NCBI RefSeq assembly: GCF_002571385.2
Contig: NW_019217813.1
Span: forward strand, 539,512 to 603,511
From: Stylophora pistillata
Taxonomy: Eukaryota
DNA: 64,000 bases
Reading direction: 5' to 3'
A model generated the notes under the pieces. That model worked only from the letters and a program-made list of their open reading frames with translations. It was not told the DNA's origin and searched no databases. Positions 324 through 38,100 of this stretch are shown one piece after another; within the stretch, counting starts at the first letter, position 1; each line of letters opens with the position of its first letter. The position numbers and the translations under genes were made by a program.

Positions 324-1141
324 GTTGAATTGCATGATCCAATGATCCAGTTTTTAATAATTTTCTTTATTCTCATCCCTTGTCTGACAGACATAGTATT
401 GATATTTTATTTAGTATTGATAGATTGAGGAAAAATTCTTTCTTGGTCACCCATGGGAGTGAAAGGATCAAATTATGATAGGGATACAAGGATCACTTTT
501 TTCTCTTGCCATTTTAGGTATAACTTTTTAAGCTTCACCCATAGTGCTATCAGTAAAGGATAATAGTTTCTTAATAAACACCTTCCTCAATTAGGTTCCC
601 CTTCTTCCAATAAGTGCCCCTCCTTTTAGCCAACATTTTGAGTAAGTGCCTTGGCACTTATTCGAGGAAATGCTTTCCGTAGGTCAACAAATTAGCAATC
701 ATAGCCTTTGCTCACAATAAACAAACTATTATAATCAGAAAATCAGCATTCTTCCATCAAAATTAAAGCTTACTGTACGTTCTCGTACAGTACAGTATTT
801 ACATGTTTTTGTTTTATGGTTTGTTTGTCCTCCGTTGTATTTTTCGTTGTTTTTTATCCAGATCAAATATAACCTGACTATGATAAAAGAAAGCAATAAT
901 CAATTCACACTCCAGATATTTATTCAAGTACTTACCAGTTCTCTAAGCTCCAAATTAACTTTTTCCTGCTGTCTGATTAAATGTGATTTGTATGCAGCTT
1001 GGAATCTAACCATAAGGGGCTGAAAAAAAAAAAAAAAACACCAAATACAGTTATATTGGAAGATTTACAATGAATGTGTATCTTATTTGGCCCTGAAAAC
1101 GTCAATGGAAAATATTGGTAATGAAGACAATGTTTACTTAC

Positions 1142-1579
1142 ATGATCGGGATCAAGAACCACCATGTCACTCTCCCCGTCTGAACCTGATTCCTCTTCAT
1201 CCCTAAGATCTCCATCGCCATCTTCACCGATATCAGCCTCAATCTCATCCTCTCTAGCTTCCTCGCCACTGCCAGTGATCTCCTCAGAGAGCAATGTCTG
1301 CGCTCCAGGCACTCCTCGCGGATCAAACGTTGGAATATCCTGTGTCAAAGTTGCGGTAGGGACGAGACCTTCACTCTCTGCACCGGTTACAACGGTGTCC
1401 ACATCACTCGGATCGCTCAAACGAAAGTCCTTCAATGCTTTAACGGTCAATTTACTGACTGCATCTTGAATAGACTTTTTGGAATCAGCTGAGCCTTTTG
1501 ATCTTCCAGATACCGGCCTCTGTTCGCCTCCTTTTCCTTCTGAATCACTGGGTCCGTTTTCTCCTAACTTGTCCGCCAT
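1142..1579 (-). CDS. CCDC40: Coiled-coil domain-containing protein 40 (axonemal ruler), first coding exon; gene continues off the left edge
   Basis: ATG at 1579. Acidic low-complexity N-terminus ends in ESDMVVLDPDH, then a GTAAGT donor at 1141. VVLDPDH matches the conserved CCDC40 motif LVVLDPDHPLM. An X-box lies just upstream, as expected for a ciliary gene. Confidence 0.75.
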
Positions 1580-1798
1580 ATTTCTTCCTTCAAAACTTGG
1601 TTGAACTTTGTTTCCTTGGCGACTTTGATGTTGAGCCCGCGATCTTGAGTGACGTCACATACATACCATTTCCTTATTTGAAGAGCTTACAGCCACAGGG
1701 ATTATGCGTATTTTGGCAAGAAACAGAAGGAACTGTGAAACATGTAGGGTAGTTGTAGCGATTATTTCTCAGCTGATTTTTAAAAAACCCCATTCAAA
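1580..1798. promoter_or_regulatory. Bidirectional promoter shared by CCDC40 and MGRN1, with an RFX X-box (1610-1623) and a CRE palindrome (1649-1658)
   Basis: Divergent ATGs about 220 bp apart. GTTTCCTTGGCGAC fits the X-box consensus; GTGACGTCAC is a perfect CRE/ATF site. Confidence 0.6.
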
Positions 1799-7700: not shown

Positions 7701-10700
7701 TGAATTGTAGGAAACTGTATGATTACCTTTTTTGAGACAAAGAAGGTTGATGGGAGGAAAATGGTTAGTGTTTTACACCTGTGAGTGACCAAGACAGAAT
7801 TTCTCCTCACAATATGTATAGGTAATCGCAGGGGGCCGAGTAAAATTAAGGATTAATTGGGAAGTTGCTGAAATTGCCCAAGTCCCACAACGACAAGGGC
7901 AATTTCTGCAACTTCCGAAAACACAAGTGATATTACTCCTTAATTTTACGACGAACCATGTGATTACTTGTTTATAATTTAAGGGGCAAAATGTTTCTTA
8001 CTGATCTCATGCAAAACGGGATGCCATTGTTACAAAACAAACAGAAATTTCTTTACCTTGGCAGCTGTTGCTAAGCGATTTTCAGCCAATTATTTTCAAG
8101 TAATTTTGCCCGGGGCAATTACAAAAATTAAGAAAAAGTGCCCTCTGTCTTGACCAATCACAATTCAATAATTTTGCCCCTTATATGATAACAAAAGTGA
8201 ATTATAAGACAAGTGACAAGAATAAAGAAAAATTTAAATTGGGAGGCAGACATTAAGGAGAATTACTGATGTGATCTTGGGGATAACAGGGGCAGATCCA
8301 GGAATTTTTGATTTGGGGGGTCCAAACTTTGGTTCAGAAAGGACTGTTGGACTCTTTTGAGGCAATTACTTCTCCCCAACACCCCCCACACCCCCTCCCA
8401 CCAGTGGTGGTTGTATGTTATAATTCCTTGGCCGCTTACCATTTACTTGGATTCATTAATTTAAAAAATCAGCCAGATAAAAAGTGATATACGATCCTGT
8501 CAATGTAAGAATTTCAGTCTCAAAGTTGTAAGCGTCAGATCTGATAGGGGGGTCCAAACCCCCCGGGCCCTCCCCCTGGATCCGCCACTGGATAAAAGGC
8601 CCCCTTATCAAGTATGCAAAATGTAGACAGGCTAAGCACCTTTTGAAGTTGTTTTTTCTTGAGTAAGTAATTCTTGGGGTATGGCATTTTTTTTGTTATT
8701 TAAATAATGCTTTTTGTTGTCAATGTGCATACATCTGTCACAGGATGAAGATAATGAATTAGAAGAAACTGGTTTAGAGTGTGTAATTTGCATGAGTGAC
8801 ATGCGAGATACTCTGATCCTACCCTGTAGACATCTGTGTCTTTGTAGAGATTGCGGTGAGTTGACTTTTGTCGCATTTTGTGATTTCATATCAATATGTC
8901 CACCACACAGCGATCATCAGTTGAGTGAAGCACAAAAAAAGTTTGGTGATTGGGTTTTGACTGGAAAAATAATGGTGTTGTAACAGGCAACCTTTTCGCT
9001 TCCTGTGGTAAATGAAAGTCAAGATCCCTGCATCACTAACCATTAAACTTGAAAGCTTGCCAAAAGAAGTCAAATGACACATTGCTATTGGAAACGGAGC
9101 CAGTTTCCCATGACAATAACAGGATTTTAGCATCAAAATGTGGTCGCCAAACTTCCTTTGCATCCCACGCAACAAAATTGTAGTATTTGGGTCAGGGTAT
9201 ATGACAACATTCTTTAAAATGTCCACTGCACTCTTTTTTTGTTTCATTTTCACCAAGTGATTGAATTGGTAAACAAATCATATGAGATTCACAAGATCAC
9301 ATGGTTCCAACACTATGGACTTCCCACTGCTCAACTGATAATGTGGTTGTAGTGAATTAACGAGTGCTGGTTGCTCTTAATACTTTGACTCTCACAAGTG
9401 ACTAGCATCTAATTTAACTGTACCATATCACCCTTGAATCAACTTCAAGGTCACAAGAATAAAAGAAATGTTCACATACTAAAGAAGCTCTTGATTCTTT
9501 AAGAAATTCTCCTTGTCAGCATCATACAAGAACATTATGGAGAATATGCATATTGATGTTAGGTTGTAAACGATGAAGAAATTTGAGTACCTTGCATAAA
9601 TATTATGGCTGTTTCAAGCTGGCTACTTATTTTCAGACACATTAACTGCTGCTGGAGTCATTTTAATTTTTTTTTTCTCAATACTTTCAGCTGAATCACT
9701 AAGATATCAAGCAAGTAACTGCCCCATTTGCAGATCACGTAGGTGGCTCTTCAATGTTTGTAGACAATACAGTAGAGCAAACACACAATACTATCAGTAT
9801 TAACTCATTGACAAGAATCACAAAACTTCATGATGTCATGTAGTTTTTGTTTTTTTAGATAGGAAAGTGATATCAGGTTGAAATCTCAAGTATCCTAAGC
9901 ATTAACCCTGCTGCTGCCAAACTTTAATTCTAAATCCTATGCATTTCAGACAACGTCTATTTCAATACCATTCCTAAAAGATTGCTGAATTCTTGATCAT
10001 TTTTCAGTAGCCCTCTATTTTAATCATCTGTTACTGTTTAACCCATAGCATTTCATGCTTTGCTACAAATCTGTGCTTATATCAAGAAGCAAATTGGCCC
10101 AAATTCTCAGGTATGATACTCTGAAAATGGCAAAGGTCAATGGACAGTTTTGTTGATTTAGAAGCTGCAGATAGATGTAGATGGGATTTTCCAATAGTGT
10201 TACCAATTATTTATCGAGTGGTTGGGGGGGGGGGGAAGGGTGTTGAGTGGAAGAAAAAGGGTCACGTGTCCACCTCCCCTCCTCACCATCAGGTATTCCG
10301 TTGGGATGTCTTGTACTGCCTTCGTTCAAATGAAATATCGTGCTCGCAAAGCAAATGACAATTCTTTTTCTACTCATTTCCCCCAATATCTATATACTAA
10401 TGACCCATGATCCACATCATAACTAGAATCATTAGAAATTTTGAACGTTTTAGTGAGCAGGCGTTATTTATCGCCTGGAGCCTTTGGGTCGCAGTTAATT
10501 AGCAGTCAATTTTCTGTAGTCCCTCTTCCCCACTCTCTCCCGTTCCATCTGAAAAAGATGTGATCCCCAAAATCCTCCAACCAACCCCCCTCCCGACCCC
10601 CTCTGCGATAATGAGTGACTGATACCTGAGTAAATATGAAAATGGCCGACCCATGGAACAAATCTACCGTGAAACGTTTACACCATACGCGAGATCGATG

Positions 10701-13588
10701 CAATTTTCAATCTAGCTCATAACGTGCTTGCTTATTTAAGTGTTAATTTTGTTTTGAAATGTTATTTTGATTATCATTCTATCCCTTGCTTCTCTCGAAT
10801 CAGGAAACTGCTCATGGAGAGAATGCGTGGCCTGGGTATGAAGAGATTCCTCTAGTAGAAGCACTAAATGGAACAATCAAACCAGACAATATACCAGAAG
10901 GTATTGGTTTGATATTTGAAGGTTATTGTAAATAAAAAAAAAATTACAAGAGATGAAAAAGTATAATTGCATATGCTGTCATTGCACTCGAGGAAACCTG
11001 AGTGACCATGGGTTCAAGTTGTGAGTTTGTGAAGTCAATCTCAGCGCGTGCTACAAATAGAATCACATTATCTATTATTTTGTTTTATTACTGGAATTGG
11101 TTTAAAGAAAAAAAAAGTCATCCCACCTACTCATGGGCCATGGCCGCTTTTTTAAGAACGCCGCGCTGTGCCGCTTTCCTTGAATTCTCACTGGCTTGCT
11201 GATTTGTCTACGTCTCTTCTAACTGGACGTTAATGTTGCCTTTCTTGGGTTCAGAACAACTCACATTATAAGATATGGCTTGATTAAGTCATTCACTCTT
11301 CAATTTATGGTCGCGGGAAAATGAAAAAGGGAAGACATGAAACTCAAGCGAATCTGTTCAAGTAGCGGTTTTTCTTCCTCATACCTCACCTCTATTTATC
11401 TGTGTATTTCGTCATCACAGAAGCCGTTGCGCGCATGCGTCGAAGATCAGCGTCAAGTATTCGATCCTCGGGCAAAAGGAGAGTTGAGAGTGCTCGCGGT
11501 CAGCGTTATGTTGAGAGATCCCTTTCCGCGTGTTCAGGGATGTCGCGACCCAGCACAGCCCCTGTGAGTAGAGGCAGAATTGAACAAGTGGGGGAGCCTG
11601 CAAGTGTTGAGCGAATTCAACGGCAGGAGGCTACATTAGAGTCAAAAGACGTGGTCACGATGATTAATAGTGCAGAAATCGAAGAAGCAACGTCGGTGCA
11701 CGAAGAGGAACAAGGTAATTACAGTTTATTGATATTTTGATGTTTCGTGCAGATGTTGAACGTTTGTAACGATANNNNNNNNNNNNNNNNNNNNNNNNNN
11801 NNNNNNNNNNNNNNNNNNNNNNNNNNNNNNNNNNNNNNNNNNNNNNNNNNNNNNNNNNNNNNNNNNNNNNNNNNNNNNNNNNNNNNNNNNNNNNNNNNNN
11901 NNNNNNNNNNNNNNNNNNNNNNNNNNNNNNNNNNNNNNNNNNNNNNNNNNNNNNNNNNNNNNNNNNNNNNNNNNNNNNNNNNNNNNNNNNNNNNNNNNNN
12001 NNNNNNNNNNNNNNNNNNNNNNNNNNNNNNNNNNNNNNNNNNNNNNNNNNNNNNNNNNNNNNNNNNNNNNNNNNNNNNNNNNNNNNNNNNNNNNNNNNNN
12101 NNNNNNNNNNNNNNNNNNNNNNNNNNNNNNNNNNNNNNNNNNNNNNNNNNNNNNNNNNNNNNNNNNNNNNNNNNNNNNNNNNNNNNNNNNNNNNNNNNNN
12201 NNNNNNNNNNNNNNNNNNNNNNNNNNNNNNNNNNNNNNNNNNNNNNNNNNNNNNNNNNNNNNNNNNNNNNNNNNNNNNNNNNNNNNNNNNNNNNNNNNNN
12301 NNNNNNNNNNNNNNNNNNNNNNNNNNNNNNTGGAGAGCACTCAAGAAGCTAGAGTTGCCCTCGGCTATCGCCTCGGGCAACTCTTACGGGCTCTCCAAAC
12401 TTTCCGCGTGCTCCATAACTCGACAGTGCACGCTAAAGCATGAACCAATTGTTAATTATAGCAGAAAACGGGGATTGCAGGACTTGTTTCTCAAATTAAT
12501 TGTGTAATTTGGTAATATCAACTAATTTGAAATTGTAAATTGGCCACCGTACTGGAGTCAAAAAGCTGACGTTTCGAGCGTTAGCCCTTCGTCAGAGCGA
12601 ATATGGAAGAACTGTGGGTTGTGTGTGGGTTTATATGCAGAAAGTGGAGCTACGCTATTGGTGGGAACATGGCGACGAGAAAAACACGAATAAATTAGTA
12701 GAATAAAAAGCGTTCGTTTATACCTGTGGGATTAAGAGTGCCGATTAGAAAGATAAACTTTTGTTCAAAAGTTTTGCGGCTTTCCGAGCTACCTAAATGT
12801 AAGGAAAGACCGCAGATTGCCATATGTTGCTTAGAATGATTAGGTAGATTAAAGTGTTTAGCGACTGGTTTTGATGCGTCGTTGTCATTCCTTTCTACGT
12901 CACGAAGGTGTTATCGGAATCGGTCACCTAGTCGTCTTCCTGTTTCGCCGATTTTTATCTTTTTGCAATAGGTGCAAGTTAAGGAATAGATGATGTTAGC
13001 TGAGGTGCATGTGAAGTGATCAGTGATCTTAATTTTTACCTTTTAAAGCACACACAACCCACAATTCCTCTATTAATCTATTTGCTACGACGAAGGGCTA
13101 ACGCTCGAAACGTCAGCTTTTGTAATCGTTACGGTGGCCAATTTACCATTTCAACTTTGTTGATATATCCAAAGTAATTAAACTGATTGGTGCGATAAAT
13201 CAGTTTACACGAACCCGACTTAATGCATTTAGTTGAATCCTGGCCTTGTTTTTTTTTTTTTCGGTTTAGTAATGCAGTTGTTTTCTTCTTGGGTTTCCTA
13301 TGTCTCGATCTGCATATTACCTGGTATTTCAGATAGCATGTAACTGAACGAGCCTGTCTATTTTCCTTTCCAGTCGTAAACCCTGTACTAACAAAGGAGG
13401 CAGAGCAGTTCGAAGATGCACAGGACCTCCAAGTACACGTTGACGCATCCTTACCCGGCACACCACTGAGCAGTGATGTTAGTGGACGCAGCAGCCTCAG
13501 TGCCGGAAGCGCGTCAGCGACCACGCCGACTTACATCCGGTTAGAGGAAGGAACAGGGGAGGTTTCTGTTACCGTGCTACCTACATGA
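1799..13588 (+). CDS. MGRN1: E3 ubiquitin ligase MGRN1/RNF157 family (Mahogunin RING finger)
   Basis: Phase-consistent exons: 1799-1883, 1999-2120, 3709-3797, 3925-4035, 4496-4616, 6162-6228, 7099-7190, 7354-7425, 8744-8855, 9691-9738, 10049-10110, 10804-10900, 11421-11714, 13374-13588. Motifs: [121 protein letters not shown]. The gap 11775-12330 could hide an exon. Confidence 0.95.
3324..3479. mobile_element. MITE with CAGGGCTCAACACTAACT terminal inverted repeats (related copy 4964-5095)
   Basis: 18-bp TIRs with an imperfect 5-bp flanking duplication; inserted inside an older interspersed repeat. Confidence 0.7.
5176..5509 (-). mobile_element. tRNA-derived SINE (other copies 26548-26899 -, 62329-62585 +)
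   Basis: A/B-box tRNA-like head followed by a shared core (consensus ccggaccaacactcaaggtcttaaaataactgag...ctagtcttctcggataaggac) in three copies. Confidence 0.8.
8287..8590. mobile_element. hAT-like MITE with 5-bp TSD GATAA
   Basis: TIR CAGGGGCAGATCCAGG / CCTGGATCCGCCACTG; GATAA on both flanks. Confidence 0.8.
9380..9572 (+). repeat. Abundant ~200-bp interspersed repeat family (copies near 4850-5170, 15310-15690, 25570-25775, 31385-31560, 36435-36635, 46995-47460, 58345-58530)
   Basis: Shared consensus agtgactagcatctaatttctcc...aatcaaacattaaggtcacgagaataaaggaaatgatcaccaact...aaattctccttgtcag...ggagaatatgcatactgatgttagggtgtaaagggtt. Confidence 0.8.
12505..13180 (-). mobile_element. Penelope-like retroelement remnant: GIY-YIG endonuclease fragment flanked by inverted pseudo-LTRs
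   Basis: Minus strand ~13035-12705 reads DHFTCTSANIIYSLTCTYCKKIKIGETGRRLGDRFR*HLRDV..VAKHFNLPNHSKQHMAICGL..EQKFIFLIGTLNP. The two ends are inverted copies of each other. Confidence 0.85.
12565..12598 (-). ncRNA. Minimal type I hammerhead ribozyme motif (Penelope pLTR)
   Basis: GCU-CUGACGA-A-GGGC-UAAC-GCUC-GAAAC-GUC-AGC: intact CUGANGA/GAAA core, stem II, palindromic AC/GU stem III, GUC cleavage triplet, 3-bp stem I. Confidence 0.65.
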
Positions 13589-17141: not shown

Positions 17142-17455
17142 TTAATTATAGCAAATTCTATTTTTCGAATGAAATTCCTTTCTTTTATTCAAACCGTGGG
17201 GTGCCAAAGAGAACACCTGAGCACTCCAATAAGCCTCATTTGCGATTAAAAGCCTATCGATCTCTACAGAGCCACTAGGGGCCTGTACATGATCAATGCA
17301 TTGGAACGAAAAATCATCCAGGGTGTGTGGGGTTTTGTTAAAGTGTATCGCTACTTCACAAGTTGTTTTGTTTGTGAGCATAGCAGATTTGTGATTTCGA
17401 AATCTCACTTTTAAGTCGGTAGTAGTAGATCCCACGTATTGCAGGCGACATTTAT
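17142..17455 (-). mobile_element. Second Penelope-like element fragment (C-terminal GIY-YIG endonuclease), 5'-truncated
   Basis: KCRLQYVGSTTTDLKVRFRNHKS..VAIHFN..FSFQCID..EAYWSAQVFSLAPHGLNKR; typical PLE GIY-YIG C-terminus. Confidence 0.85.
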
Positions 17456-18056
17456 ATCTTTATGTATATATAGAGGGTAGGTTCCTAAGGAGACCGGTGC
17501 TGCGTCGGTATTTACGTTTTATCGACCGAGTTGATTATGCAAATATTTGCCCCGAAAGAGAGATAGTTTTCATTTACATTTTCAAATAATTTTTCAAATT
17601 TTATAGTTGAATGATTGATTGGCTTGGCTCTCTCAAGAGGTTTGGTAGGAGTCGTAGTATTTTATTTTTCTTCTGAATTCGTCTGTCAGTGTGGGGGTGG
17701 TCGAAGAATATCAAGTGCGCGAGTTCGTGGGAACCCACTTTCTGCCCGCGATCTTTCACTCGCGAATCACGTGAGTCGCGAAATGCTTTCCTGGAGGTAA
17801 CTGAAAGAGTGTTTGTTTTTTTGAAGGAGTGGAGAGTTACGATTTCATTTTTCTCTTAGAGGGCAAACATTTCATGAAAAGCATTTTAAAAGCTGTGGAT
17901 ATATTGTGATTAACACCTTCAAATCAATACATGAGATTTTTTTACGCTTTGATTGTCACCATGGTAAATTATTCATAGAACGAGGGAGGAAAGAAAAGAT
18001 CACCGTCGCGGCCACCGAGCGACGAACATCTGTTAGCCTTACAGATAGATCCACAA

Positions 18057-18594
18057 ATGCCGGACAGCGAAATAACAAGAATTACAGGGACTACTGCGAA
18101 CGGATTCCTTTCCAAGAATCTCCAGCCAAAATATAAGTATATTGAAGACCCTGCCGATGTCGTATCACTAACTTACAAAAATCAGTACAGTCAGTTTAAC
18201 GTGAAATATCACGAGCTAAAGGTGGTCGCCTCCCCGATCTTCGGCCGTTTCAGCGGCGAACGAGTCGTTTTTGAATATGATTGGAACACAGTCAAGGTAT
18301 CGACCGAAAATAACTCGGCTTACGTCATGTTTTTGCGAGCAGGGACTTCCCCAGAAAGTGTTCAACGATTCTGTCTCAATTTTCTTTACTCGAGCGACGC
18401 CGATCGAATTTTGAGGTAAGGCGTTAATTTTTGTTTTTACTTTTATGCAAATCTTTCGATATTACATGCCATTTTTACGCCAAGTTTACAGCAGTACATT
18501 GTATTTCGGAGACGAAGTGAAGAAGATTTTATTCAGTACAAAGACTTCTTGCAATACTAGAGGCGGCCCAAGCGGCTATATTTTTATCCAGTAA
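18057..18594 (+). CDS. Uncharacterised protein, possible PH-like/EVH1-like fold (exons 18057-18415, 18492-18594; start uncertain)
   Basis: 120-codon ORF ending at a strong GAG|GTAAG donor. A short intron leads to a TTTACAG acceptor with phase-2 continuation STLYFGDEVKKILFSTK..IQ*. No family recognised. Confidence 0.45.
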
Positions 18595-19174
18595 CACAAC
18601 ACGCGGTAAAAAGAAAGTCGCCAAAATAGCATTAAACGACCCTAAGCAACAAGGCGGCTACGGATTAAAAGAAAGGAAAGTCAACAACTTATTTTCATCG
18701 CTTTTAATATCCTTTTTATTTTTCAATTTCTTTTTTATAATTTTTTTTCTTTTTTTACGGCACACGCTTACGCTAAATTCAATCTTCATTTGCTAGGTAT
18801 TCCCGATATACGCTCGGGCCGCCTGTAATAATGCTAGTCAATGACCCTAGACTATCGATGCATCACTGTTAACAAGAAACGTGATTAATTTCACTTTTTA
18901 TCGTCACAAGAATATATTTCGTTTCAAATCTGAAATACTCATGGCTTGAAAACTAGTTGCCTCTGATCATAAAATACACTTTCGCTACTTTATTTTTCTC
19001 ATGCCGTCATTATAAAAGCTCGAAACAGATAAATTAAACACGAGAGACTTTTCCAAACAACGTAATATGTTGTAATGGGTCTGTTTACGTAAGGAAATCA
19101 ACAGGTAATTCGTAAGCCTAGTAAATGTATAGCTTTTAGATAGTGATGCGTAAAGGTGGACAGTGCACCGTTTT

Positions 19175-21842
19175 ATGGCGACGCTTTCGGTGGGCTCCAA
19201 CGCGCGTGGGTATGTTATTTTTTTAGCTCCACAACTTACGTGAAAATACGCTTAGAGGGATATCTGACATTGCGTTTTTTTTTTCTAAGAAATTACAGAG
19301 GCGAAATTTACGCGGAAACAATCATCCTCAATGCAGTGGGATAGATAAAAAAAAAATCAAGAAAAAAGGAACCAGAAAAGTCCAGAACTTCAAAGTTTCC
19401 TGGGGAAGCCCAGACCTCTCTAAGAACGGAAGACTCTGCATGCCTTCAAAACTATTCTAAACCATCCACTCAAACCTCAAGCCAAATTTTATTGGGTCAC
19501 TATGACTTTTTGGTCCGACCCCAAGTGGACCAGTGGGCTGATGAAAACACAGCGGTCAAACGTTTAGTGAAGCTCCAAGCGAAATGGTGAATCACGACAA
19601 ACCGGTAAATGAAAAACCTTTGTTCACAAAAGTCTCGAGTTCTCCTTTTCCCTAATATTTTTTTCGCATATTCGCCGTTACAGCGGTTGTTTATTATGTA
19701 TTTAACTGACCTTTTACGCGGGAAATTGGCACGCAGACGATCAAAATTGATCCCTTTGCACATGCCCTACGTTTGACCGCTGTGACCCTTCATTTGCCGA
19801 TGAGTACTTAACCTTAGTGAACTAACCAGAAATCAACTCATGCATCTATTTCCTCAGAGAACATAGAATAAACGACGATGAGCTCAACATTAAATCAAAG
19901 ATGGAAAGTGTGCCCGCATCTCTGACGGTGCAGTGTCTTAGATCAGTTGTTATCAACATGGAACGCATGTCCAAGAAGGAACTTCTGTATCTACCCAGTC
20001 CTTATCGAGAGCTTTTCGTTCCAGACTCTTTCATTCCGGTCAAGTTTAACCTTTGGCCCCGACATGTACTTGAGAATGGAGAGAGTATAATTCTAATGCT
20101 GAAAAGAGAAATGATAATCAGCGAAATGCTACTGTTATTAAAGCATAAATTAGAGCTCAAAAGCGATGTAGAAATGAGCTTGTTCAGAGGGAGCCTTCCG
20201 GTAGAAGAAGATGATGTTATCATGGACGGAAATGTCGACTACGATTGCGTCGTTTCACCTTGTCGTGGCCCGACAGCCATTGCCAGTGAAGTACAGCTTG
20301 AAAAGCATCACGTGAACGTACGGAAAAGTCCCACTAAGGAGGTAAGTACCACCACATTGCGTTTGATAAAGGAGGAATAAATCATAGAACAATTCCTCAA
20401 CTGTGAGATTTTCCTCGGGGCGGTTTCAATACGCGAGAGCTACAGAAGACAAGGCGAAGAACAGAGGAAGGCTTAAAAGCAAATGGAATGATTGCGAACC
20501 GAGCCATTCACTTTTAAAGATTTGATCTGCAAGTCTCACATTCAGCCTGCTAACAAGCTTTCATTGTCAGCCTTGGAGGATAATAATAATCAACTTTATT
20601 TAATGAGGGTAAAACACATAACAGTATAAAACTGACAAACCAGTGGCCCTCTTAAAATATATTACAAACAATTATTGAAAAAGATTAAAAACTAATTAAT
20701 TATGGAAAAATTAAGGATGTAGATTTTTTCCACCTGCGGGAAGGTTTGAGTTGAGACAAGACGGCAAATTCAGGCCAGGGGTTGCGGAGAGGGAGGGGCT
20801 GGTAGGGCCGCGGCTCCACCACCTTTTTGCGCCCCCACCACTTTTTTGCGCTCCCACCCCCGCGAAAAATAATTACTATGAGTTTATTCCTTTTTTCGAT
20901 TTTCAATATAAAAACGTTATTTTCAATTGTCAGCCCTCCCACTTTACACCTTGCTCCGCGGTTACTGCAGGCTGGGTTTATTACGAATCAACTTAACGGC
21001 CTGCTCCCAGTTGGCTTGTTTGCTCAATTGGTAGAGCGCTACACTAGTATCGCAGAGGTCAGTGGTTCGAATCCCGTACAGGCCTGATGTTTTTCAGGTC
21101 TGATTTTCGCTATTGCATAAATAGCGCTCTCTGCTGCGAGGATCGTGCATCATACGTTGCATCATACGTTGCATTTTATTGAAACGTATTCAATAAGAAC
21201 GTTTCTTGTGATTTCTCTTAGGTTATTATTGCGTCGCTGGTTGGAAAAGAAATGAAAGAACTGCACGTAAACCTCTCCCTTCCCCTCAAATACCTAGACA
21301 TTCAATTGCGCCAGATTTTTCGACTCAAACCATGGAGTTTTTTGGTACTGTATCTTCCAAGCGAGGACCGCAACATATTTCACGCCGGAAAAATGATTTA
21401 CTCAAGTTACGAAGAGGAATTTGCCAAGTTTCTTGTTTCCAACGGGAGGAGAAATTTCCCAAGACCAGACCGAGGTATGGATACATTAGGAGTCAAAGAT
21501 ATGTACAAGGAATGCTCAGCTTTCAAGAAATCACTTCGTAACCATGGATTTCGCCCTGGAATGTTAGTAGAGGTTTTCGAGATCACTGGCCCGAGTGTCC
21601 CGGTCATGTACTCTGGTGCAGTCACCAAGGCCCAAGTCCTTGACGTGAATCCTGAGTGGTCGATTCAGACATTTAGGTATTACGTTGAAGTGAGCACTCC
21701 AGAAGCATCGAAGATTGAATCTATCGACTACGTGAGAGACTGCAAAAACGGCAAAGTGTCGGATATTTTAAACATGATGAAGAATCTGTGGAATCGGCCC
21801 GATCGAGGAGGTCGGCTTGAGTACGTCAAGCTACGCAGCTGA
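19175..21842 (+). CDS. Uncharacterised ~379-aa protein with BC-box/SOCS-box-like motif and ubiquitin-like segments
   Basis: Exons 19175-19209 (tentative, MATLSVGSNAR|GTATGT, phase 2), 19858-20341 (donor GAG|GTAAGT) and 21222-21842 (acceptor TTTCTCTTAG) join in frame without stops. Confidence 0.7.
20776..20967. mobile_element. hAT-like MITE with 5-bp TSD CAGGC
   Basis: Imperfect TIR CAGGGGTTGCGGAG / CTCCGCGGTTACTG; CAGGC on both flanks. Confidence 0.7.
20973..21165 (+). mobile_element. tRNA-derived repeat (same family as tandem copies at 60957-61423; degenerate relative near 6300-6470)
   Basis: tRNA-like cloverleaf GGCTTG..GCTCAATTGGTAGAGC..GGTTCGAATCCCGTACAGGCC embedded in shared flanks. 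Confidence 0.75.
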
Positions 21843-22054
21843 AAAATTATTATTAAGATTAAATCTGGAATGATGGTCGAAACAAGTTCGAGCTTAACGC
21901 AAGTTGACGGCGAATACGGGGAACTCATAGTACCAATTCGCACTTCGTGGTTCATCCGATTTTGAAATGACCTGACAGAATTGCTACTTTCCTTTCATTG
22001 AAAAATTGTATGGTCATGCGATTTTTCCAACCTGAATTAAGGCCCTTTTTTAGG

Positions 22055-30646: not shown

Positions 30647-37955
<7,309 letters not shown>

Positions 37956-38072
37956 TTTGCGACCTCTTCCCAAATGCGACGAACTTCCTACTACATGAAT
38001 ATAGGGCTGTACGTTCGAGAACAAATATGATCGACTCATGCGTTCGAAGTAGGAATGGGAACGAGTCGCCTT

Positions 38073-38100
38073 CATCCGTTTCCTAATATGGACTTAGTCA
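38073..38100 (-). promoter_or_regulatory. Serum-response-element-like module upstream of GRB2
   Basis: Minus strand TGACTAA-gt-CCATATTAGG-aaa-CGGATG: AP-1-like site, perfect CArG box (38082-38091) and Ets core, ~130 bp upstream of the ATG. Confidence 0.45.

What the first reader, a model, noticed from the sequence alone, without database searches (positions are those of the whole stretch)
19175..21842. Unrecognised BC-box/SOCS-box-like protein with tandem ubiquitin-like segments: candidate new Cullin-RING adaptor
Seen: a phase-consistent 3-exon ORF. Known: the Elongin BC-box consensus is [APST]LxxxCxxx[AILV], and in SOCS boxes it is followed by an LPxP cullin box. Here PASLTVQCLRSVV...LLYLPSPYRELF fits both. 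Inference: IPVKFNL..SIILMLKREMIISEMLLLLKHKL..MSLFRG..YDCVV looks like a beta-grasp. VIIASLVGKEMKELHVNLSLPLKYLDIQLRQIF..LVLY..KSLRNHGFRPGMLVEV aligns by eye to ubiquitin (IFVKTLTGKTITLEV..RTLSDYNIQKESTLHL) with a long insertion. A third partial unit may follow (KAQVLDVNPEWSIQTFR). I know no family with an N-terminal SOCS-like box plus 2-3 Ubl domains. It lies between an E3 (MGRN1) and an E2 (UBE2S) gene.
Basis: partly seen in the sequence, partly recalled or inferred. Interest (0 to 1): 0.72.

Follow-up and report, generated by a model that had tools for sequence, protein, structure and literature searches.

The report
Ancient BC-box, triple-ubiquitin-fold coral protein
This is a spliced, single-copy coral gene for a 487-residue protein of an unnamed family that reaches as far as an amoeba; it carries a docking motif that likely binds Elongin B/C and two, probably three, predicted ubiquitin-like folds, so it likely picks targets for a protein-destruction ligase, though no binding has been tested.

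Summary
Real gene, wrong first exon. Coral orthologues (478-488 aa) and RNA contigs indicate exons 18057-18415 / 19858-20341 / 21222-21842 (487 aa), not 19175-19209. A profile search found 51 relatives, full-length ones 18-26% identical, one from the amoebozoan Thecamoeba; no Pfam family fits. The box is conserved: Leu 50/50, Cys/Ala/Ser 48/50, Pro 56/56. A box-only profile hits one PDB sequence, the SOCS3 box (E 0.006). A confident model (pLDDT 87) has two ubiquitin folds (Z about 11); a third is supported by profile only. The N-domain fold is unassigned. Best reading: an Elongin BC-docked cullin-RING substrate receptor, likely Cul2-type, with an undescribed tandem-Ubl module. The scan had no look-alike on other DNA. 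Interest 0.5.

The parts
18057..18415 (+). True coding exon 1 (residues 1-119/120): beta-meander plus helices, fold unassigned; phase-2 donor AG|GTAAGG. 5' end of the transcript inferred near 17920-17940 from contig lengths
   Evidence: tblastn of 4 homologues, 66-94% identity; ORF 17979-18419; models; contig overhangs
18234..18272 (+). Family motif P60-x-x-G63-x-F65-x-G67-x4-F72 of the N-domain
   Evidence: P60 44/47, G63 45/47, F65 38/49, G67 42/50, F72 41/49 in A3; coordinates
18416..19857 (+).
19858..20341 (+). Coding exon 2: linker, BC box, cullin box, Ubl1, variable linker
19919..19948 (+). BC box, residues 141-150 (SLTVQCLRSV), on predicted helix 142-152
   Evidence: 92% identical to three other coral genera over 141-152 versus 13-27% in the linker before it
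19991..20017 (+). Cullin-box-like segment, residues 165-173 (LPSPYRELF), Phi-P-x-x-Phi-x-x-x-Phi, 14 residues after the BC box
   Evidence: 40/50 rows fit; LPxP 4/50; LP-Phi-P 0/50
20027..20263 (+). Ubl1, residues ~177-255, beta-grasp
   Evidence: VIA Z 11.4, rmsd 2.1, 76 aligned to a ubiquitin variant; Z 10.6 to UBL4A
20342..21221 (+). Intron 2 (GT..AG, 880 nt), holding a high-copy repeat at about 20974-21157
   Evidence: joint seen in X22, X1, X4
21222..21587 (+). Ubl2, residues ~280-403, beta-grasp with a ~45-residue insertion carrying conserved R358-x-F360-P361
   Evidence: VIA Z 11.2, rmsd 1.6, 78 aligned to the USP4 UBL; homologous to Ubl1, hhalign 89%, E 2e-6; conservation
21573..21602 (+). 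Most conserved family motif, F400-E-V/I-T-G-P405-x-x-P408, joining Ubl2 to Ubl3
   Evidence: F400 42/47, E401 44/48, G404 48/50, P405 48/50, P408 47/51
21588..21842 (+). Probable Ubl3, residues ~404-487, then stop; no C-terminal Gly-Gly
   Evidence: strand-strand-helix order in the model; hhalign to a ubiquitin/Ubl profile score 22.0, E 7e-4, above Ubl1's 20.4; not folded alone; 0 of 39 full-length members end in GG

Best explanation
The gene encodes a 487-residue protein (N-domain, internal BC box plus cullin box, then two and probably three ubiquitin-like folds) that likely binds Elongin B/C through the box and likely serves as the substrate receptor of a cullin-RING ligase, most probably of the Cul2 type. 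Shown: gene structure, expression, conservation of the box residues. Predicted: helix-loop-helix shape of the box and beta-grasp folds. Inferred: Leu142 and Cys146 seat in Elongin C; the segment at Leu165-Pro166 contacts the cullin; the strongly conserved Ubl2-Ubl3 unit, alone or with the N-domain, holds the substrate near the E2; the Ubls are non-conjugated (type II). In many non-coral members an N-terminal Gly/Cys or Cys-aromatic-basic segment would tether the ligase to a membrane (inferred from recalled lipidation rules). The substrate is unknown.
For: Box residues are far more conserved than their surroundings in a family with about 20-25% identity: L142 50/50, C/A/S146 48/50, hydrophobic 150 50/50, P166 56/56 (rows include near-copies, so they are not independent). 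The published BC consensus fits 42/50 and the published Cul2-box consensus 40/50, at spacings of 10-16 residues, inside the published 8-23 (PMC4878042 and PMC3355856, passages). Without being told where to look, the whole-family profile ranked the SOCS3 SOCS box first of 177,635 PDB sequences, at the box (E 0.6); a box-only profile of 26 stretches gave it as the only hit (E 0.006). Pfam SOCS_box was the top family for those stretches (2 of 26, best E 0.022). Model pLDDT 87.2, pTM 0.87, helices at 142-152, 159-164, 167-173. Ubl folds. The genome holds an Elongin C exon. CUL2 receptors are reported to share no signature domain (bioRxiv 10.64898/2026.03.13.711689, passage), which fits the lack of a Pfam hit.
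Against: The window's own box scores no Pfam family and the SOCS3 match is modest, with boundaries that I chose after seeing and 26 of the 50 box-bearing rows used. The loose L-x3-[CAS]-x3-Phi pattern is also conserved at a second place, L316 (37/48), in a loop and strand of Ubl2, so the pattern alone is not specific. The Cul2 pattern is permissive: the SOCS3 box shown fits it too, so it does not separate Cul2 from weak Cul5 binding. The high pTM suggests a compact protein, and I could not see whether the box helix is exposed. A member from an amoebozoan sits badly with Cul2, which one survey holds to be animal-specific (PMC2785787, passage). No substrate evidence at all.
Confidence: 0.55

Rival explanations
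1. It binds Elongin B/C and acts as a ligase receptor, but with Cul5 (weakly, like SOCS3) or with another cullin such as Cul3.
For: The closest solved sequence is a SOCS box. 3 of 50 rows have Phi-P-Phi-P ending at the invariant Pro. SOCS1 and SOCS3 bind Cul5 relatively weakly (PMC4812663, passage), and ZSWIM8 with Elongin BC uses CUL3 (bioRxiv survey, passage). The amoebozoan member may predate Cul2 and Cul5.
Against: LP-Phi-P, stated to be required for specific Cul5 binding, is found in 0 of 50 rows in either register.
Confidence: 0.12
2. It binds Elongin B/C only as a stabilising partner and works as a multi-Ubl scaffold (for small GTPases, p97 or the proteasome) without forming an active ligase.
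For: Ubl2 resembles USP-type and UBX domains (USP4/11/15 Z about 11; UBXD7 and FAF1 UBX Z 9.4-9.5), and Foldseek lists USP7 UBL arrays and kindlin, all interaction modules. Cullin-contact residues were not tested.
Against: The second half of the box (P166 56/56, following hydrophobic pattern 40/50) is conserved, which a bare BC box would not need. Shared Ubl fold shows no function.
Confidence: 0.15
3. The helical segment is an internal structural core that packs the N-domain on the Ubls and only resembles a BC box; the protein is unrelated to Elongin BC.
For: pTM 0.87 points to a compact single unit. E-values to known boxes are modest. The loose pattern recurs at L316.
Against: Invariant Leu, small residue at +4 restricted to C/A/S, hydrophobic +8 and a downstream invariant Phi-Pro with variable spacing reproduce the whole two-part box, and the only PDB hit is a SOCS box.
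Confidence: 0.18

Closest known systems
VHL-box (CRL2) substrate receptors: VHL, LRR-1, FEM1, PRAME, ZYG11/ZER1 (PMC4878042, passages)
   Same: BC box followed 8-23 residues later by Phi-P-x-x-Phi-x-x-x-Phi; no common signature domain
   Different: Those listed use beta-domain, LRR, ankyrin or SWIM-type modules (passages); none of the passages seen lists tandem Ubl domains; here the box lies between two folded regions; binding to Cul2 untested
SOCS box of SOCS3 (PDB 2jz3) and other CRL5 receptors
   Same: Only PDB sequence matched by the box profile, over the whole box
   Different: No LP-Phi-P; box internal rather than C-terminal; no SH2, ankyrin, WD40, SPRY, LRR or GTPase domain by Pfam
Tandem type II Ubl arrays: USP7 C-terminal UBLs, USP4/11/15 UBL, ISG15, kindlin F0-F1
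   Same: Consecutive beta-grasp domains; Ubl2 has a long insertion
   Different: Identity only 6-18%; no USP catalytic domain, no diGly; preceded by a BC-type box; arrangement differs (whole-chain TM below 0.2)
FBXO7 (Ubl plus F-box, SCF receptor; recalled, no call)
   Same: A cullin-adaptor-binding box and a Ubl domain in one receptor
   Different: F-box/Skp1/Cul1 rather than BC box; one N-terminal Ubl rather than a C-terminal array; no homology tested

Membership tests
BC-box proteins | (S,T,P)LxxxC/S/AxxxPhi (PMC4878042) | tested here: met
   window SLTVQCLRSV; 42 of 50 rows, 47 of 50 with any first residue
BC-box proteins | Motif on an amphipathic helix | tested here: met
   helix 142-152, block pLDDT 93-95; exposure not examined
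BC-box proteins | Binds Elongin B/C | not tested
VHL-box / CRL2 receptors | Cul2 box Phi-P-x-x-Phi-x-x-x-Phi, 8-23 residues after the BC box (PMC3355856) | tested here: met
   40 of 50 rows, spacing 10-16; the pattern is permissive and also fits SOCS3
VHL-box / CRL2 receptors | Assembles with Cul2-Rbx1 and ubiquitylates a substrate | not testable with these tools
   needs biochemistry
SOCS-box / CRL5 receptors | LP-Phi-P in the Cul5 box (PMC4812663) | tested here: not met
   0 of 50 starting at the invariant Phi-P, 0 of 50 ending at it; LPxP 4 of 50; Phi-P-Phi-P 3 of 50
SOCS-box / CRL5 receptors | Pfam SOCS_box at a significant score | tested here: inconclusive
   2 of 26 stretches at E up to 1, best 0.022; none for the window's stretch
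Type II ubiquitin-like domains | Beta-grasp fold, units 1 and 2 | tested here: met
   Z 11.4 (rmsd 2.1, 76 aligned) and Z 11.2 (rmsd 1.6, 78 aligned) on a predicted model
Type II ubiquitin-like domains | Beta-grasp fold, unit 3 | tested here: inconclusive
   profile score 22.0, 0 of 60 shuffles as high, but the N-domain control also beat its 60 shuffles at 15.6; not folded alone
Type I ubiquitin-like modifiers | C-terminal Gly-Gly | tested here: not met
   0 of 39 full-length members
UBC/UEV/RWD fold (N-domain) | E2-like beta-meander and helices | tested here: inconclusive
   several E2/RWD rows at Z 4.5-5.1 with 74-89 aligned, within background; profile test 10 of 100 shuffles as high
USP7-type deubiquitinases | USP catalytic domain | tested here: not met
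   no Pfam hit in 6 coral or 34 other members; no room in the 487-aa model

The most novel reading that the evidence does not exclude
An ancient cullin-RING receptor family, older than animals and lost from the usual model organisms, in which a dead E2/RWD-like domain and a rigid triple-ubiquitin module clamp an internal BC box; membrane-anchored in most members, it would use its own Ubl folds as the substrate reader (for example of small GTPases) or to hand substrates straight to p97 or the proteasome, a substrate-recognition mode not listed for Elongin BC ligases in the reviews seen.
Probability: 0.15. Interest if true: 0.8.

Novelty: new variant of a known kind. Interest (0 to 1): 0.5.

Why it matters
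Elongin BC ligases are catalogued almost wholly from humans, worms, flies and viruses. A family that pairs a BC box with tandem ubiquitin folds would add a new receptor architecture and, with a member in Amoebozoa, would give a handle on which cullin Elongin BC receptors used before Cul2 and Cul5 split. It also names a function to test for a conserved single-copy coral gene now annotated 'uncharacterized' in Pocillopora, Orbicella, Montipora and Acropora. The impact is limited by the unknown substrate and the apparent absence from standard models.

Tried and rejected
First exon 19175-19209: rejected; a direct lay of either first junction was not obtained. My first splice script used a start one base off and was redone. 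Pfam on window exons, 6 coral proteins and 34 other members: nothing at curated cut-offs; weak rows for ubiquitin-clan families (ATG8, PB1, Rad60-SLD, UN_NPL4, OTU1_UBXL; clan membership recalled) mostly fell on the Ubl units but at E 0.03-0.2. PDB sequence search with the coral-only profile: 0 hits; the second hit (7fcn, E 0.95) was taken as chance. N-domain: Foldseek no match at E 0.001; VIA best Z 5.9 (capping protein), no row clear of background; no PH-fold row among the top 50, which does not exclude one. E2 homology by profile: a first run held wrong-strand fragments, the cleaned run of 29 fragments was not significant. Ubl1-Ubl3 and Ubl2-Ubl3 profile comparisons were not significant (0.3% and 2.8%). 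ESM Atlas: no usable hit for the Pocillopora orthologue; other tries did not complete or not held. Paralogues: one locus only in G000 with exon 3 and with distant member P0088. Gene neighbourhood as evidence: rejected. ARAGORN found no tRNA in the intron-2 repeat. Tree: corals, two unnamed groups and three long branches; deep order unresolved, so no claim on gains or losses. Literature: six locus identifiers, 0 papers in main texts; five topic searches (listings only) showed no description of such a family; supplements were not searched and could list these loci. Earlier scan findings: none by sequence or place; one by words (DM9-SOCS box, another family) did not bear on this.

Full report
1. 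Observation. A search with exon 3 for longer proteins returned four proteins of 478-488 aa whose clusters include RefSeq/GenBank 'uncharacterized' proteins of Pocillopora, Orbicella, Montipora and Acropora. All begin with a ~120-aa region that the window encodes at 18057-18415. tblastn of these four gives three blocks each and none at 19175-19209; a donor after 18415 is in phase and yields 487 aa, 87% identical to the Pocillopora protein. RNA laid on 19400-22000 shows the 880-nt intron 2 in 3 of 4 runs, and two contigs that enter exon 2 at 19856 with 478 and 492 unplaced upstream letters. The gene is single-copy in G000 by two searches.

2. Family. The word-indexed search found six proteins. 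A profile of six coral-type sequences against 1.84 billion representatives found 51 at E up to 0.001, 39 at 1e-10. Besides coral-like fragments, there are full-length relatives of about 460-700 aa, 18-26% identical to P0001. Of 20 distant representatives looked up, one carries an organism, Thecamoeba quadrilineata in EukProt (P0102); two clusters hold 'hypothetical protein' entries and the rest have no name, so their source organisms are not shown. Left out of the profile, P0102 still scores E 1e-24 over positions 52-454. The distant member P0088 finds only this locus in G000 (E 9e-7). A tree of 40 rows gives a coral clade, two well-supported unnamed groups (10 and 21 rows) and three long branches, with the deep order open. 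No Pfam family reaches its cut-off. That bilaterians lack the family is likely from the small hit count but was not tested, because the library has no names.

3. The box. In the 62-row alignment, 50 rows cover the box: L142 50/50, residue 146 C 36, A 9, S 3, residue 150 hydrophobic 50/50, and P166 56/56 preceded by L, I, M or V in 53/56. Among corals 141-152 is 92% identical while the linker before it is 13-27%. Published consensus patterns (PMC4878042, PMC3355856, PMC4812663; passages only) were applied: BC box 42/50, Cul2 box 40/50 at spacings of 10-16, LPxP 4/50, LP-Phi-P 0/50 in both registers, Phi-P-Phi-P 3/50. The whole-family profile ranked the SOCS3 SOCS box first in the PDB sequence set at E 0.6; a box-only profile from 26 of those rows gave it as the single hit at E 0.006, and Pfam SOCS_box appeared for 2 of 26 at best E 0.022. 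Caveats: rows include near-copies; the box boundaries were set; the loose pattern also holds at L316 (37/48); the Cul2 pattern also fits SOCS3.

4. Structure. AlphaFold2 on the Pocillopora-type orthologue P0001 with 62 sequences gave mean pLDDT 87.2 and pTM 0.87. Foldseek returned polyubiquitin, USP7 UBL arrays, ISG15 and kindlin, 87 matches at E up to 0.001, all with low whole-chain TM. VIA-align placed ubiquitin folds at 175-257 (Z 11.4, rmsd 2.1) and 278-402 (Z 11.2, rmsd 1.6, best to USP4/11/15 UBLs). Ubl1 and Ubl2 are homologous by profile (89%, E 2e-6). Residues 404-487 have the strand-strand-helix start of a beta-grasp and score 22.0 against a profile of 19 coral ubiquitin-like repeats, against 20.4 for Ubl1, 15.9 for Ubl2 and 15.6 for the N-domain control; it is probable but was not folded alone. 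No member ends in Gly-Gly (0 of 39). The N-domain folded alone at pLDDT 82.9 has no clear match; several E2/RWD-type rows at Z 4.5-5.1 and a motif resembling the E2 turn suggested a dead UBC-like fold, but the profile test failed (10 of 100 shuffles as high). Ubl2 and Ubl3 are the best-conserved domains among corals (70-80%) and Ubl1 the least (47-49%). Of 39 full-length members, 7 start MG with a Cys in the first 12 residues and 12 others have C-[FL]-x-[FL] in the first 30, usually before a basic run; these look like lipid anchors by recalled rules, and the coral proteins lack them.

5. Mechanism. Most likely the box docks on Elongin B/C, which recruits a cullin-Rbx module, and the Ubl2-Ubl3 unit or N-domain holds a substrate: an Elongin BC cullin-RING receptor, Cul2-type by motif (0.55). 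The genome has Elongin C and cnidarians have Cul1-Cul5 (PMC2785787, passage). Rivals: another cullin (0.12), an Elongin BC-stabilised scaffold with no ligase activity (0.15), or a look-alike structural helix pair (0.18).

6. Comparison and novelty. It works like a VHL-box or SOCS-box receptor; it fails the SOCS-box membership feature LP-Phi-P and meets the VHL-box sequence features, with binding untested. The review passages seen list SH2, WD40, SPRY, ankyrin, LRR, GTPase and SWIM modules for these receptors, not Ubl arrays; the survey's Table S1 was not seen. Searches for six locus identifiers found 0 papers and five topic searches showed no such family in their listings. I class it as a new variant of a known kind: known docking logic, undescribed architecture and family.

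7. Verdict. Observation partly confirmed (first exon wrong, protein longer); interpretation partly supported (BC-type box and Ubls hold up, the Cul5-type LPxP and the neighbourhood argument do not). Interest 0.5.

Noticed in passing
window 20974-21157: High-copy short repeat in intron 2 with a tRNA-like 5' part by eye (SINE-like; label is my reading). Read depth is 500-1000 against about 5 in the exons, with sharp loose ends at 20974 and 21157 and reads that go back 179-185 bases. ARAGORN calls no tRNA.
   Followed up: partly
window 19400-19856: One RNA contig (X1 record 1, depth 7.8) and a few X22 reads cover the 3' part of intron 1: retained intron, pre-mRNA, DNA carry-over or an alternative 5' exon. 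The in-frame Met at 19901 is not conserved in Pocillopora.
   Followed up: no
window 37737-38093 (-): SH3-domain exon (Pfam SH3_1, E 9e-6), GRB2-like by recall, lying between this gene and the E2 gene.
   Followed up: partly
window 8708-8980 (+), 42088-42213 (-), 977-1654 (-): RING exon (zf-C3HC4_3), E2 exon (UQ_con) and an acidic ORF that looks like the start of CCDC40 (recalled; no Pfam hit).
   Followed up: partly
window 17142-17459 (-): GIY-YIG fragment (E 0.0035, below cut-off) just upstream of the gene, probably a Penelope-like element remnant (recalled association); a similar-looking fragment lies at 12695-12910.
   Followed up: no
P0021 (Orbicella RefSeq model, 745 aa): Carries the exon-3 part twice in identical form; probably an assembly or annotation duplication.
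   Followed up: no
L040-L054 (G000 contigs C365, C366, C4141, C194): Several intronless ORFs with long arrays of diverged ubiquitin-like repeats, apart from the true polyubiquitin on C224.
   Followed up: no
P0071-P0084 group: The 640-700-aa members have Ala or Ser in place of the box Cys and a much longer, basic, Arg/Ser-rich insertion in Ubl2.
   Followed up: partly
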